64,000 nucleotides of DNA from Escherichia phage vB_EcoM_YN3: the sequence record PV763136.1; one strand, given 5' to 3'. Position numbers and translations under genes: made by a program. The notes under the pieces are model-generated. The model did not search any database. It was not told where the DNA came from and saw only the letters and a program-made list of their open reading frames with translations. Shown piece after piece: positions 38,257 to 41,524 of the stretch; position 1 is the first letter of the stretch; each line of letters opens with the position of its first letter.

Positions 38257-40854
38257 TTAAAGGTACAATCCACGGTATTGAGCATAAAGTCCCAAACCGC
38301 GAAGGATTTCGCCAGAGTGATAGCCTACCGGATCAGAAACTGCCCAGCAGCCGTTTAAAACATTATCTCCGTTAATGAAGTGGTGCTTTTGCAGTAACTT
38401 CACGCAGGCTTCTACAACAATATCTATTTGAGGTATTGTCTCTGAATACCCGCAAAGACCTAGCCAGCAGCAACCTGCAAGCCATTCACCTACCACCCAC
38501 ATCCTGTCACCTCTATCTTGATAAGAATATCCTCCTGAGGTGTTAAAGTCTGTAGGGAGATTTCCGGAATGAGATGACTGGAATCTGTTGAGGAACCATG
38601 CCCATTTCTGGCAGAACAGGAACAGTCTCTCATCAACAGGTTCTTTATGTTTCTTAAGCTCATATAGTGTGCGGCACGCAGCAACAAAGGCTCTTGATTG
38701 GAGTTTAGAGTTATCTACCATCTCCCACCAACCAGTCAACCCCTCATTACCCCTCTGCCATACGTAGCGGGATGCAACTGGTCCTTCTGTTTTAAATGTG
38801 TTATTATACCAAACTTGGGAGTCGTACATAAATCCAATCGTATTTGCCAATCTTTGACGATCTATGTTTTCCGCACCCATACAGTAGACTGCTGGGTATT
38901 GCATGCCGGGATAGGGCCAATTTGGCCTTTCCTCTAGAAGATAATTTTCCTTATCTATTACCTTTCCAGCAGGGAACACACCAGGAGTGTGTCTGTATGC
39001 GCCTTGCTTGTAGTTCCTGACATAGCAATCACCAACCTTAGCGGTTGATTCTGTCTTGCTTGCCATCCATACACTAAACCAGATCAGATAAGCATCCCTA
39101 TCTGCAACATAAAATTGCGGCAGAGTGTTGACGCAATACAGATCGAACAAGCCATTGCCTATCTGCCTGTCGCTCAGACTGAAATCTACAGAGGTAATTC
39201 CTTTAGGGTTGGCAAAGAAAGGTTTAATCTCATCTTCTGTGTGATGAGGTTGTGTTGGATCTAGTTTAAAATCACCTAGGGTAAGAGTTTCTGTTATCCA
39301 TTGTCCGTTAGTGGCATATAGATCAGCATACCATAACCAACGGTCTTTGTCAAGAAATTTGACCCTTACCATCTCATCATCTGATCGATAAGTTACTGAG
39401 TTTAAAGAAATCTCCCTTCCAAAATTGAAAGTTACTTTGCCTCTTACTATGTTGCAACGGGTGAAGTTGTCGGAGTGGTTGTAAATGTCGGTATCATATT
39501 GCATACTAACACTAGCGCCACCGCTTACGGCAATGTTTTCCTCTTTTGGCAGGAGATACGGGTTACCGTCTTTACCAACCACCTCTACGAAATCAGTAAC
39601 CTTGGCAACTGTCTCTGTTACCTCTGACCCTCCAAAAGGGACCCCTATCCTATACTGTTTTTTGTTATTGTTGCCATCATTAAGGATGAAATGTGGCTGG
39701 AACAGAACCCCCTCTCCTCCGAAATTCATAACAATTTCAGCATCTCTGCCTATCTTGTATGTAGTCCCTTTTTGGATTATTTCGCAAGGCTGGCGTGCGT
39801 TCATTCTAAAATTGATATACCCGTCGCTGTCCCTGCTCATGACAGGAACTGTTCCTGCAACGAGACAAGTACCATCTGTGAACGGTGCCTTAATCAACGT
39901 GGTCTTTCTAAACAACTTGTCGTAGGCATTTATATCACTGAAATTAAGCAACTTGTTGTAAGACTGTTTAAACGCGGTGTAATACTTTTCCTCGCCTGTC
40001 AAAGTGTAGAGTTGATAACAAGCGTCACACCACATTTCTTCCCCGTCCAACTCTGGGGCTTGATTGTCTGCAACCACATTTATAGGGTTTACAATTACAG
40101 GGGATCCAGCAGGTATCACCGATCCACCCTGCTCTTGTGGCAATCTCACACAGTAGGTTACCTTGTGGCTGCCTGTAACACCCTTATCCTGCAGTTGGAT
40201 TGTGCCGAACTCTGCAGACGTATGACCACTGTCGGCTATGCTACCGTTGGCCCAATAGCGGTTACCATCCCATGCTATATACCACTCAACCCACCAACTT
40301 AATCCAGATGTTGTCCAATTTGGGTTAGCATCCGTGCCGCCGTAAACATCAGAGTCTACAGTGTTTCTTCCTAGCACACCGTTATACGCTTGAAATGCCT
40401 TGTCTAGGTATTCCCCCCATGTCGGAGATCCAGCTGGGATTTTTCCTCTACCATTGGTAAAAGACACCACTACATCTTTAAACCCGCCATGTGATGGAAC
40501 CCCATCTGTGGATAATGGGTAGTGGGACAATCTTTGCATTTTACTTTCTACTGCATATGCACCTAGAAGATGACTGTTGTAGGCTTCCCAAGCTTCTTTG
40601 GCCCTATCTAGGTAAAAATCGCTTTTTGATGCCCTGTATGCCTCAATGTACCCCAGAATCAACACAGCCTGAGCTTCATGCATTGCCCAATCATTATTTA
40701 TCTTACTCCCTGACCAACCTGACGCTATAAGTCCATCCTGGTTTACCAGTTTGTTCTGCGTGGGGAGATTGGTAACGCCTGTGTTGTTATCGAGGCACTT
40801 CCTGTGCCCCTCAATCATCTGAAATACGTTATCAATGTTGTGTTGAATACGCAT
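38257..40854 (-). CDS. anchor-less tailspike-like protein, possibly enzymatic (depolymerase-like)
   Basis: 865 aa, Trp/Tyr-rich; translationally coupled (TAAGATG) to the upstream anchor-domain gene; no enzymatic fold confirmed. Confidence 0.35.
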   Translation of the reverse strand: MRIQHNIDNVFQMIEGHRKCLDNNTGVTNLPTQNKLVNQDGLIASGWSGSKINNDWAMHEAQAVLILGYIEAYRASKSDFYLDRAKEAWEAYNSHLLGAYAVESKMQRLSHYPLSTDGVPSHGGFKDVVVSFTNGRGKIPAGSPTWGEYLDKAFQAYNGVLGRNTVDSDVYGGTDANPNWTTSGLSWWVEWYIAWDGNRYWANGSIADSGHTSAEFGTIQLQDKGVTGSHKVTYCVRLPQEQGGSVIPAGSPVIVNPINVVADNQAPELDGEEMWCDACYQLYTLTGEEKYYTAFKQSYNKLLNFSDINAYDKLFRKTTLIKAPFTDGTCLVAGTVPVMSRDSDGYINFRMNARQPCEIIQKGTTYKIGRDAEIVMNFGGEGVLFQPHFILNDGNNNKKQYRIGVPFGGSEVTETVAKVTDFVEVVGKDGNPYLLPKEENIAVSGGASVSMQYDTDIYNHSDNFTRCNIVRGKVTFNFGREISLNSVTYRSDDEMVRVKFLDKDRWLWYADLYATNGQWITETLTLGDFKLDPTQPHHTEDEIKPFFANPKGITSVDFSLSDRQIGNGLFDLYCVNTLPQFYVADRDAYLIWFSVWMASKTESTAKVGDCYVRNYKQGAYRHTPGVFPAGKVIDKENYLLEERPNWPYPGMQYPAVYCMGAENIDRQRLANTIGFMYDSQVWYNNTFKTEGPVASRYVWQRGNEGLTGWWEMVDNSKLQSRAFVAACRTLYELKKHKEPVDERLFLFCQKWAWFLNRFQSSHSGNLPTDFNTSGGYSYQDRGDRMWVVGEWLAGCCWLGLCGYSETIPQIDIVVEACVKLLQKHHFINGDNVLNGCWAVSDPVGYHSGEILRGLGLYAQYRGLYL

Positions 40855-40855
40855 C

Positions 40856-41524
40856 TTAGATAGCTCCTGCTATAATCAGTGCCCCGTACCAAGTTAACCC
40901 GTTGTCGTAGGTTTCTAACTTGAAAATATCTGTTGCACCAGCTGTAAATGTTAGGATAGGATCTCTTCCGTATGCCCATTTAACATTATCAGGCCAATAG
41001 ACTTTGTTACCGCCAGAGGTCTGAGTAATGCATACGGTTATAGTTCTCGCCACCCCTTCAAGGCCTTCTGTTTGATTTTCAAAAGCGATTGTGGTATTTG
41101 AAGTTAGTCGAACTTTAAAAGTGTCCGCAACTTCAAGATCCATATCAAGCTGACCACCAATAGATCCGTAATCAACTATTCTGCCAGAAGAAGTTGCAGC
41201 AAGCTCCCCAAAAACAGACCAGGCTTTTGCAGACACACCTCCAGCACCCTCTACAGTAGAGTCTGGAAGGATTATTTTAGGATAATCCCCGTTCCACGTG
41301 TAGTAGCGCTTGGTCTCTGGGTCATAAGCAAAGTCCTTCTTGCTCTTAAGATAACCACCCTCTGTGAAATAGACTATTTTGGTAATGCTGAGATCGTTGA
41401 CAACATCGTCAATCTTAGCCTTTCTTGTCCCATCAGTCTGATTGACAACCAAGAAGTCATCACTCAGGACTGTTTCTGCATCTTCAAGATCTGGAATTGG
41501 TATTGTAGGATAAGCTACAGCCAT
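40856..41524 (-). CDS. fibre-anchor (adaptor) domain protein
   Basis: 222 aa; first ~100 aa (…DDFLVVNQTDGTRKAKIDDVV…FTEGGYL…DFAY…) homologous to the N-terminus of the 1267-aa fibre. Confidence 0.45.
   Translation of the reverse strand: MAVAYPTIPIPDLEDAETVLSDDFLVVNQTDGTRKAKIDDVVNDLSITKIVYFTEGGYLKSKKDFAYDPETKRYYTWNGDYPKIILPDSTVEGAGGVSAKAWSVFGELAATSSGRIVDYGSIGGQLDMDLEVADTFKVRLTSNTTIAFENQTEGLEGVARTITVCITQTSGGNKVYWPDNVKWAYGRDPILTFTAGATDIFKLETYDNGLTWYGALIIAGAI

What the first reader, a model, noticed from the sequence alone, without database searches (positions are those of the whole stretch)
38257..41524. Split tailspike: anchor-only protein translationally coupled to an anchor-less 865-aa putative enzyme
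The 222-aa product shares its first roughly 100 aa with the N-terminal anchor of the 1267-aa fibre but has little else. Its stop is 1 nt from the ATG of an 865-aa Trp/Tyr-rich protein that lacks any anchor. This looks like a two-component receptor-binding protein in which the adaptor docks the enzyme, or a recently split gene.
Basis: partly seen in the sequence, partly recalled or inferred. Interest (0 to 1): 0.65.

Follow-up and report, generated by a model that had tools for sequence, protein, structure and literature searches.

The report
Portable adaptor-plus-enzyme tail fibre module
In this rV5-like coliphage, a small tail protein most likely plugs into the baseplate with one end and holds a large anchor-less sugar-enzyme-like protein with the other, and the same two-gene cassette, with a different plug, recurs in many unrelated phages.

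Summary
The window is a Vequintavirus, 98% identical to phage FV3. The two ORFs are the orthologues of rV5 gp43 (222 aa) and gp42 (865 aa), and both were found in rV5 virions by mass spectrometry. They are separated by TAA-G-ATG. The first ~100 aa of the 222-aa protein match the N-terminus of the 1267-aa fibre (38% identity, E 2e-18; both Pfam Tail_spike_N).

The 222-aa protein is not anchor-only. Its C-terminal ~110 aa form a conserved all-beta domain with no Pfam or PDB relative. That domain lies directly upstream of an 865-aa-family gene in every assessable locus (about 75), across myo-, sipho-, podo- and jumbo phages and prophages, while the N-terminal part changes. The only family members without this partner carry a covalent ~280-aa N-terminal extension. 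This supports "adaptor docks the large protein" and argues against a recent gene split.

The 865-aa protein models as an (alpha/alpha)6 six-hairpin barrel with a variable beta insert. Enzyme activity is unproven. Relatives carry extra enzyme modules at the C-terminus, including the N4 gp65-like deacetylase. That suggests a gp43–gp42–gp34 fibre.

It is a new variant of the known anchor–adaptor principle. Interest is moderate.

The parts
40856..41524 (-). 222-aa adaptor protein, orthologue of rV5 gp43 and functional counterpart of phi92 gp140
   Evidence: ORF. It is 98% identical to rV5 gp43. gp43 was detected in rV5 virions by MS (PMC3606486).
41201..41524 (-). N-terminal anchor, residues 1-~108: a ~45-aa N-terminal motif plus the Tail_spike_N beta domain, shared with the 1267-aa fibre
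40859..41191 (-). C-terminal ~110-aa all-beta domain ('C-domain'), ending in an Asp-box-like motif T-Y-D-N-G-L-T-W. It is the proposed docking domain for the 865-aa protein.
   Evidence: Conserved in the small upstream protein of every lineage examined. No Pfam and no PDB sequence relative. Always directly upstream of an 865-aa-family gene.
40852..40868 (-). Coupling junction: AGGAG, 5 nt, TAA, G, ATG
   Evidence: Read directly. Equivalent junctions with gaps of -37 to +3 nt occur in eight other lineages.
38257..40854 (-). 865-aa anchor-less protein, orthologue of rV5 gp42 and phi92 gp141. Predicted (alpha/alpha)6 barrel built from residues ~55-320 and ~660-865, with beta-rich inserts at ~100-268 and ~320-640.
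38236..38252 (-). GC-rich hairpin GGGGGC-tgttt-GCCCCC in the 35-nt spacer between the 865-aa and 1267-aa genes, followed by TTT and the fibre gene's AGGAG
   Evidence: Read directly. The terminator scan did not call it because the T-run is too short.
34418..38221 (-). 1267-aa lateral fibre (rV5 gp41 orthologue) with the same N-terminal anchor and a C-terminal Peptidase_S74 chaperone domain
   Evidence: Pfam, BLASTP. A strong terminator at 34391-34410 closes the operon.
24239..26311 (-). 690-aa N4 gp65-like protein (Calx-beta + NCTSP_N + TIM-barrel_NCTSP), orthologue of rV5 gp34 and phi92 gp142. It is a candidate distal partner of the 865-aa protein; this is inferred.
   Evidence: Pfam E 2e-79. 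The homologous gene directly follows the 865-aa-family gene in phi92-like contigs. It is fused to the family in P0023 and P0028.

Best explanation
The two genes encode a two-protein lateral tail-fibre module. The 222-aa protein (rV5 gp43) is an adaptor, presumably trimeric. Its N-terminal ~108 aa are the same anchor type as in the neighbouring 1267-aa fibre and fix it to the baseplate periphery. Its C-terminal ~110-aa beta domain is a dedicated socket for the 865-aa protein (rV5 gp42). The 865-aa protein has no anchor of its own and joins the virion only through this adaptor. It is built on a conserved (alpha/alpha)6 six-hairpin barrel, which is a carbohydrate-enzyme fold, with a variable beta insert. 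It probably binds or processes a conserved surface glycan, and it also serves as the chassis to which further modules attach at its C-terminal end. In this phage the likely attached module is the N4 gp65-like deacetylase gp34. The near-overlap of the two genes, with the Shine-Dalgarno sequence inside the upstream ORF, keeps their synthesis coupled. Shown: the ORFs, the junction, the anchor homology, virion presence (from the literature), the co-occurrence pattern and the fold-level similarity. Inferred: the physical docking, trimeric state, enzymatic activity, substrate and the link to gp34.
For: (1) Identity and virion presence. The region is 93-98% identical to 118 Vequintavirus records. It corresponds to rV5 gp43/gp42, and both were detected in virions by MS. 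The homologues gp28/gp29 of phage fHy-Eco03 are annotated as MS-verified virion proteins.
(2) Matching distribution. tblastn of the 865-aa protein hits 524 phage records. The 222-aa protein hits 512 records with almost the same genus distribution, and outside Vequintavirus and the GAP31-like Cronobacter phages only residues ~110-222 match.
(3) Adjacency. The small protein ends -37 to +3 nt from the large gene's start in phi92, Rosemountvirus 8-19, fHy-Eco03, Vibrio K351, Erwinia Prophecy, podovirus GAP52, jumbo SPLA3 and E9.1. The C-domain is conserved while the N-terminal part differs: Tail_spike_N, a short motif, or a coiled coil.
(4) Forward test, loci fetched with family sequences only. 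12 of 12 IMG/VR loci, plus TacPo2, siphovirus EC151, PVA7 and five further contigs, have the C-domain directly upstream.
(5) Reverse test, loci fetched with the C-domain motif only from bacterial genomes. 7 of 7 have a family gene directly downstream.
(6) Complementarity. The three genomes whose family protein carries a covalent ~280-aa N-terminal extension (Serratia jumbo phage PCH45 and two 237-kb contigs) have no C-domain gene within about 3-5 kb.
(8) Chassis role. Family members carry C-terminal NCTSP deacetylase, GH8, SGNH esterase, Big_2 or glycine-rich modules.
(9) In the 2026 phi92 cryo-EM study gp140, gp141 and gp142 are not among the modelled baseplate proteins, and fibre II and the arm of fibre I are unassigned.
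Against: No direct interaction test was possible, because no multimer prediction was available. Both AF2 models have low confidence (mean pLDDT 51.6 and 54.3), so fold matches rest on shallow alignments. Adjacent, co-inherited genes can reflect shared function without contact. No CAZy or Pfam family is reached by sequence, and no catalytic residues are mapped. The frequent addition of other enzyme modules to family members could mean the conserved core is structural rather than catalytic. The N-terminal extensions of the fused forms are not detectably homologous to the C-domain (hhalign E 0.025, probability 2%), so there is no true Rosetta-stone fusion of adaptor and large protein. Many of the loci were fetched with queries that contained both domains and are therefore biased.
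Confidence: 0.68

Rival explanations
1. The two are independent virion proteins. The 222-aa protein is a self-contained mini-fibre whose C-terminal knob binds a host receptor. The 865-aa protein attaches elsewhere on the baseplate through its own surfaces. The genes travel together only because they act on the same receptor or glycan.
Against: The 865-aa family is found on myo-, sipho- and podovirus tails and in jumbo phages with unrelated tail proteins. Its only constant neighbour is the C-domain. Family proteins with their own N-terminal extension lack the small protein. An independent attachment surface would have to fit many different tails.
Confidence: 0.17
2. The 222-aa protein is an assembly chaperone or tail-fibre assembly factor for the 865-aa protein and is not a permanent structural adaptor.
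For: It is small, lies immediately upstream and is translationally coupled. Phage fibre genes often have dedicated neighbouring chaperones.
Against: gp43 is present in purified rV5 virions, and its homologue is present in fHy-Eco03 virions. It carries a bona fide particle-anchor domain shared with a fibre. Known fibre chaperones are usually encoded downstream of their client.
Confidence: 0.06
3. A recently split gene, or one protein made by programmed frameshifting across the TAA-G-ATG junction. Under this reading the anchor and the large protein are, or recently were, a single polypeptide.
For: Only 1 nt separates the ORFs, and a +1 shift at the stop would join them. Some relatives have a ~280-aa N-terminal extension in one chain.
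Against: The split layout is conserved across at least ten deeply diverged lineages with different junctions (overlaps of 1, 4, 8 and 37 nt; gaps of 1 and 3 nt) and no shared slippery motif. The large protein's N-terminus aligns from residue 1 with homologues. The covalent extensions are not homologous to the adaptor. The only C-domain/family 'fusion' in the databases is a chimera.
Confidence: 0.03

Closest known systems
phi92 gp140 / gp141 (followed by gp142), Justusliebigvirus
   Same: An orthologous cassette in the same position, after the sheath-initiator gene. The gp140 C-domain is 40% identical to residues 109-222 (E 1e-20). gp141 aligns over 100% of the 865-aa protein at ~36% identity. 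The genes overlap by 1 nt. The gp140 N-terminal motif is shared with the endosialidase gp143, just as the 222-aa anchor is shared with the 1267-aa fibre here.
   Different: gp140 is 157 aa and lacks the Tail_spike_N beta domain. gp141 is 958 aa. In phi92 the N4 gp65-like gene gp142 follows directly, whereas here its orthologue lies 12 kb downstream. The literature lists gp141 only as a 'glycosidase' or tail fibre and gp140 only as an unfitted fibre candidate.
Branched tailspike complexes of CBA120 (TSP2/TSP4 N-terminal assembly domains) and G7C (gp66 holding gp63.1)
   Same: The same Pfam anchor domain, Tail_spike_N, named after TSP1 and gp66. Structural hits go to TSP1, TSP3, TSP4-N and gp63.1. 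The principle is the same: one protein is anchored to the particle and carries another that cannot bind on its own (PMC8825819, PMC7506556).
   Different: There the anchoring proteins are themselves full tailspikes with enzymatic bodies. Here the adaptor has no body, only a ~110-aa docking domain without a detectable relative. The docked partner is a six-hairpin-barrel protein, not a beta-helix tailspike.
Anchor–branch RBP systems of Klebsiella podophages (KP32, K11, KP34): a branching domain on RBP1 plus a conserved docking peptide on RBP2
   Same: The second protein lacks an anchor and docks through its N-terminal end on a domain of the first. The interface is modular and transferable across genera (PMC6872550, PMC13352976).
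   Different: No sequence relationship was found. The cassette here spans far more phage types, and the first protein is a pure adaptor.
K1E / K1-5 small adaptor protein carrying endosialidase or lyase tailspikes
   Same: A small non-enzymatic adaptor links an enzyme to the tail. The phi92 cryo-EM paper likens fibre I to this L-shaped arrangement. Details of the K1-5 system are from my own knowledge.
   Different: Homology was not tested here. That system is podovirus-specific, and one adaptor carries two different spikes.
Six-hairpin (alpha/alpha)6 glycoside hydrolases and epimerases (GH105, GH88, GH76, GH8, GH9, GH15, AGE/cellobiose 2-epimerase)
   Different: No family-level sequence membership. 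The barrel is split by ~340 aa of beta insert. Catalytic residues and substrate are unknown.
N4 gp65 non-contractile tail sheath protein / phi92 gp142 (binds the NGR glycan)
   Same: The window's 690-aa protein belongs to this family. In two metagenomic proteins the family is fused to the C-terminus of the 865-aa family. It is the reported RBP for the N4 glycan receptor in Vequintavirus and Justusliebigvirus (bioRxiv 10.64898/2026.04.02.716166).
   Different: It is a separate gene here, and its attachment site on the virion is unknown. The link to the 865-aa protein is an inference from gene order and one old fusion lineage (P0023 and P0028 are 41% identical).

Membership tests
phi92 gp140/gp141-type two-gene cassette (small protein with C-domain + phrog_2871 large protein) | The large protein is a full-length member of the phrog_2871 / gp141 family | tested here: met
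   phrog_2871 at 1174 bits over residues 1-863. tblastn gives 100% coverage of phi92-like homologues. Family alignment A2.
phi92 gp140/gp141-type two-gene cassette (small protein with C-domain + phrog_2871 large protein) | The upstream protein ends in the conserved ~110-aa C-domain (QGTGANKVTWP...VKW...PVLSY...D.G.TW.G) | tested here: met
   Alignment of nine lineages. The HMM hits the window ORF with E 7e-43.
phi92 gp140/gp141-type two-gene cassette (small protein with C-domain + phrog_2871 large protein) | The genes are adjacent, on the same strand, and overlapping or within a few nt | tested here: met
   1-nt spacer here; -37 to +3 nt elsewhere. The family HMM match starts <=56 nt after the end of the C-domain match in all assessable loci.
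phi92 gp140/gp141-type two-gene cassette (small protein with C-domain + phrog_2871 large protein) | The two proteins form a physical complex | not testable with these tools
   No multimer prediction or experiment was available. Only co-occurrence and complementarity support it.
Tail_spike_N-anchored branched RBP complexes (CBA120 TSPs, G7C gp66/gp63.1) | N-terminal Tail_spike_N (PF18668) domain | tested here: met
   E 3.1e-10, 40.4 bits against a cutoff of 25, residues 51-104. PDB sequence hits to TSP3, TSP4, TSP1 and gp63.1.
Tail_spike_N-anchored branched RBP complexes (CBA120 TSPs, G7C gp66/gp63.1) | The anchoring protein has its own receptor-binding or enzymatic body (beta-helix tailspike or esterase) | tested here: not met
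   Only a 110-aa beta domain follows the anchor, with no Pfam hit.
Tail_spike_N-anchored branched RBP complexes (CBA120 TSPs, G7C gp66/gp63.1) | A docking domain homologous to the TSP4/TSP2 XD or T4 gp10-like assembly domains | tested here: inconclusive
Six-hairpin (alpha/alpha)6 glycosidase superfamily | An (alpha/alpha)6 toroid of 12 helices | tested here: met
Six-hairpin (alpha/alpha)6 glycosidase superfamily | Sequence membership in a defined GH, PL or epimerase family | tested here: not met
   No Pfam hit for the window protein. One of 37 members hits GH76 at E 0.005, below the curated cutoff. The best profile-to-PDB hit has E 0.0016 over a 34-residue hairpin motif.
Six-hairpin (alpha/alpha)6 glycosidase superfamily | Conserved catalytic acid/base residues at the barrel mouth, and measurable activity | tested here: inconclusive
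   E60, D270, E272 and D502 are invariant or >=90% conserved and lie at helix starts in the model. Their spatial clustering and any activity could not be tested.
Sialidase / BNR beta-propeller (GenBank label 'sialidase domain protein' for the 222-aa orthologue in phage EmilHeitz) | A six-bladed propeller with repeated Asp-box motifs and catalytic Arg triad | tested here: not met
   Only one Asp-box-like motif (TYDNGLTW) in a 110-aa domain. BNR Pfam reaches E 0.16 in 1 of 17 members. Sialidase structures appear only at E >5 in Foldseek.

The most novel reading that the evidence does not exclude
The C-domain and the large protein form a universal plug-and-socket pair that phages of any tail type reuse by changing only the adaptor's anchor. 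In rV5- and phi92-like phages, gp43–gp42–gp34 (phi92 gp140–gp141–gp142) would together form one of the lateral fibres that cryo-EM has not yet assigned. In that fibre the six-hairpin protein is both the bridge and a glycan-processing partner of the N4 gp65-like deacetylase that recognises the conserved NGR surface glycan (formerly attributed to ECA).
Probability: 0.3. Interest if true: 0.65.

Novelty: new variant of a known kind. Interest (0 to 1): 0.5.

Why it matters
The fibre apparatus of rV5- and phi92-like phages is still only partly assigned to genes. These phages have a broad host range, are often isolated and are used in therapy cocktails. The BASEL paper states that it is unclear which genes encode which fibre. 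The 2026 phi92 cryo-EM study could not identify fibre II and did not consider gp141 or gp142.

A defined adaptor–cargo pair gives a concrete, testable assignment. A docking domain that works behind many different anchors could also serve as a handle for transplanting receptor-binding modules between unrelated phages. The principle itself, an anchored protein carrying an anchor-less one, is already established in CBA120, G7C, K1-5 and KP32-type phages, so the result extends that principle rather than overturning anything.

Tried and rejected
(1) The search for homologous proteins returned only 5 relatives of the large protein and 4 of the small one, even with a profile. Both AF2 runs therefore had shallow alignments and low pLDDT. 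I use them only at fold level.

(2) P0068, a 293-aa database protein, looked like a reverse fusion of the family N-terminus and the C-domain. tblastn on real loci shows that its halves are non-collinear, so it is an assembly chimera. I rejected it as evidence.

(3) I suspected that the ~280-aa N-terminal extensions of P0028, P0038, P0035, P0066 and PCH45 were fused adaptors, because of motifs such as KWPENIQW...FYLFTTQNKGQSY. The HMM search finds nothing and hhalign gives E 0.025 with probability 2%. I do not claim homology and use only their complementary distribution.

(4) Profile searches of the C-domain against PDB and Pfam found nothing meaningful.

A 6-sequence alignment worked.

(6) The N4 gp65-like gene lies within the fetched flanks only in phi92-like loci. 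The link to it is therefore lineage-specific, not a general property of the cassette.

(7) I considered frameshift or readthrough fusion and rejected it because junctions differ between lineages.

(8) Schwarzer et al. 2012, the original phi92 fibre analysis, is not held in the library.

(9) The promoter scan showed no excess of sites.
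Full report
WHAT THE WINDOW IS. A megablast of 38257-41524 finds 119 phage records, 118 of them full length at 90-98% identity. The best is Escherichia phage FV3 (98.2%), then rV5 and its relatives. The window is therefore a Vequintavirus. All genes of interest lie on the minus strand. From the tape-measure gene (45322-47655) downstream they are: tube initiator, plug, hub (42940-43938), central spike (42263-42940), a sheath-initiator-like 238-aa protein (41534-42250), the 222-aa ORF (40856-41524), the 865-aa ORF (38257-40854) and the 1267-aa fibre (34418-38221). The orthologues are rV5 gp43, gp42 and gp41. Strong intrinsic terminators at 45292-45309 and 34391-34410 bracket these genes as one probable transcription unit.

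THE OBSERVATION. It holds.
- The junction reads AGGAG, 5 nt, TAA, G, ATG.
- The N-termini of the 222-aa and 1267-aa proteins are 38% identical over 99 aa (E 2e-18).
- Both pass the Pfam threshold for Tail_spike_N, and no other ORF in the window has this anchor.
- The 865-aa protein has no recognisable anchor or Pfam domain and is moderately rich in Trp and Tyr.
- The statement that the small protein has "little else" is wrong. Its residues ~112-222 match several PHROG families by their C-terminal ends alone.

THE KEY FINDING: A CONSERVED CASSETTE WITH AN EXCHANGEABLE ANCHOR. tblastn of the 865-aa protein finds 524 phage records: Escherichia 242, Salmonella 101, Vibrio 62, Erwinia 33 and others. 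tblastn of the 222-aa protein finds 512 records with nearly the same distribution. Outside Vequintavirus and the GAP31-like Cronobacter phages, only residues ~110-222 match.

I fetched eight diverged examples: phi92 gp140/gp141; Rosemountvirus 8-19; fHy-Eco03; Vibrio K351; Erwinia Prophecy; the podovirus GAP52 (the 'P' in vB_CsaP denotes podovirus morphology; family Grimontviridae); the SPN3US-like jumbo phage SPLA3; and the 368-kb phage E9.1. In each, a 157-259-aa protein ends -37 to +3 nt from the start of a 916-1169-aa family member. The last ~110 aa of the small proteins align well, with consensus ..QGTGANKVTWP.NVKW..G..PVLSY..G..D....T.D.G.TW.G. The N-terminal parts are unrelated. Here it is Tail_spike_N; in phi92 it is only a ~45-aa motif; in Rosemountvirus, GAP52 and K351 it is an alanine-rich, apparently coiled-coil segment.

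TESTING THE ASSOCIATION IN BOTH DIRECTIONS. Many loci were fetched with queries containing both domains and are therefore biased, so I looked at unbiased subsets.
- Loci found with family-only queries all carry the C-domain directly upstream: 12 of 12 IMG/VR relatives of P0028, where the adaptor is 561 aa; phages TacPo2, EC151 (Queuovirinae siphovirus) and PVA7; and five further contigs.
- Loci found in bacterial genomes with the C-domain motif alone all have a family gene starting at the C-domain's end. These are 7 prophage-like regions in Pseudescherichia, Escherichia, Brenneria, Pseudomonas, Comamonas and a Pseudomonadota MAG.
- Overall, every assessable locus, about 75, shows the pair. The few others start at or inside the large gene.

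COMPLEMENTARY CASES. In an exhaustive HMMER search of 1.84 billion representatives the family is small: 91 hits. Most members start matching at their own residue 5-20. A minority have a ~280-aa N-terminal extension. In the three genomes where I could see their context (Serratia jumbo phage PCH45 and two 237-kb contigs), no C-domain gene lies within about 3-5 kb. So either a separate adaptor or a covalent N-terminal extension is present, never neither. I could not show that the extension is homologous to the adaptor (hhalign E 0.025). This is a functional complement, not a Rosetta-stone fusion. One apparent fusion in the database, P0068, proved to be a chimera.

A CHASSIS FOR FURTHER MODULES. 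Longer family members add modules after the barrel: NCTSP_N plus the TIM-barrel deacetylase of N4 gp65 (P0023, P0028), a GH8 domain (P0050), Big_2 (P0040) or a glycine-rich domain (P0019). P0069, which matches the family only over its N-terminal ~320 residues, carries an SGNH esterase after that region. One member replaces the insert by an RCC1 propeller (P0017).

In phi92-like genomes the N4 gp65-like gene gp142 directly follows gp141. In this window its orthologue is the 690-aa ORF at 24239-26311. That protein family is the reported binder of the N4 glycan receptor in these genera. This suggests, but does not show, that gp34 sits on gp42. It also cautions that the conserved core may be as much scaffold as enzyme.

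FIT WITH THE LITERATURE. rV5 gp42 and gp43 are virion proteins, and the gp43 N-terminus was already likened to the P22 tailspike N-terminus. The S144 study could not classify the family member ORF17 as spike or fibre. Reviews list phi92 gp141 as a "glycosidase". The BASEL paper states that the gene-to-fibre assignment is unclear. In the 2026 phi92 structure, gp140-gp142 are absent from the modelled baseplate, fibre II and the proximal arm of fibre I are unassigned, and gp141 and gp142 were not considered. In phi92, as here, the adaptor shares its N-terminal motif with the fibre that carries the S74 chaperone domain, gp143. Both therefore probably use equivalent sockets on the wedge.

VERDICT. 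The 222-aa protein is an adaptor whose anchor matches the neighbouring fibre and whose C-terminal domain is a dedicated partner of the anchor-less 865-aa protein. The pair is not a recent split. It is an old, mobile cassette that changes anchors between tail types.

The architecture belongs to the known anchor–adaptor class of receptor-binding complexes (CBA120, G7C, K1-5, KP32). It differs in using a docking domain and a six-hairpin cargo that the papers I could search do not describe as a pair. Physical docking, stoichiometry, activity, substrate and the gp34 link remain inferences.

Noticed in passing
window 38236-38252 (-): A GC-rich hairpin, GGGGGC-tgttt-GCCCCC followed by TTT, fills the 35-nt spacer between the 865-aa gene and the 1267-aa fibre gene, just before the fibre's AGGAG. 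It could attenuate transcription or set the fibre's translation level. The terminator scan did not call it.
   Followed up: partly
window 28605-34318 (-): A siphovirus-style tail-tip module sits inside this myovirus: a 196-aa distal-tail-protein-like ORF, a 188-aa ORF, a 145-aa ORF (annotated as a cell wall hydrolase in phage EmilHeitz) and a 1381-aa gpJ-like protein with Phage_Tail_Tip and Ig_J domains and long coiled-coil repeats. rV5 annotation links these genes to Yersinia phage PY54.
   Followed up: no
window 24239-26311 (-): A 690-aa protein with Calx-beta, NCTSP_N and TIM-barrel_NCTSP domains, i.e. a homologue of the N4 gp65 non-contractile sheath protein in a contractile-tailed phage. 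It has no recognisable particle anchor.
   Followed up: partly
window 21128-22174 and 23186-24226 (-): Two ORFs of 348 and 346 aa with no Pfam hit. By position they probably correspond to the two paralogous short tail fibres described for rV5, gp30 and gp33.
   Followed up: no
GenBank records MG065652, MG065654, MG065689, MG065645 and others: 18-23 records labelled 'Campylobacter phage' with host Campylobacter jejuni carry this region at ~93.6% nucleotide identity to E. coli rV5-like phages, or phi92-like versions of it. They look like coliphage contaminants or mislabelled assemblies.
   Followed up: no
P0068 (protein collection); loci L025-L066: A 293-aa representative protein is a chimera. 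It joins the N-terminal 194 aa of the large protein to the C-domain of the upstream adaptor at a short shared 'GALA(L/W)D' string. In the real contigs the two parts are in the opposite order and in different frames.
   Followed up: yes
L084 / L105 (IMGVR_UViG_2870055999_000002), locus positions 4878-7460 and 8691-9143: The large-protein gene is interrupted. HMM positions 2-807 and 805-928 lie 1.2 kb apart on the same strand, which suggests an inserted element such as an intron or a homing endonuclease gene, or a rearrangement.
   Followed up: no
L071 (Vibrio phage PVA7, PQ582223.1): The adaptor and large-protein genes are broken into more than ten short ORFs in different frames, each matching consecutive parts of the family profile. 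This is most likely sequencing or assembly frameshifts in that record.
   Followed up: partly
L001 (phage EmilHeitz, MZ501062.1) annotation: The 222-aa orthologue is labelled 'sialidase domain protein'. The only basis I can see is one Asp-box-like motif at the end of the C-domain, so the label is probably an over-annotation.
   Followed up: yes
L003, L009, L006, L007 (Rosemountvirus 8-19, fHy-Eco03, GAP52, SPLA3): In these phages the cassette lies among head-completion or neck genes, or next to head genes, rather than in the baseplate cluster. The adaptors there have apparently coiled-coil N-termini. The module may be mounted at the neck or collar there rather than on the baseplate.
   Followed up: no
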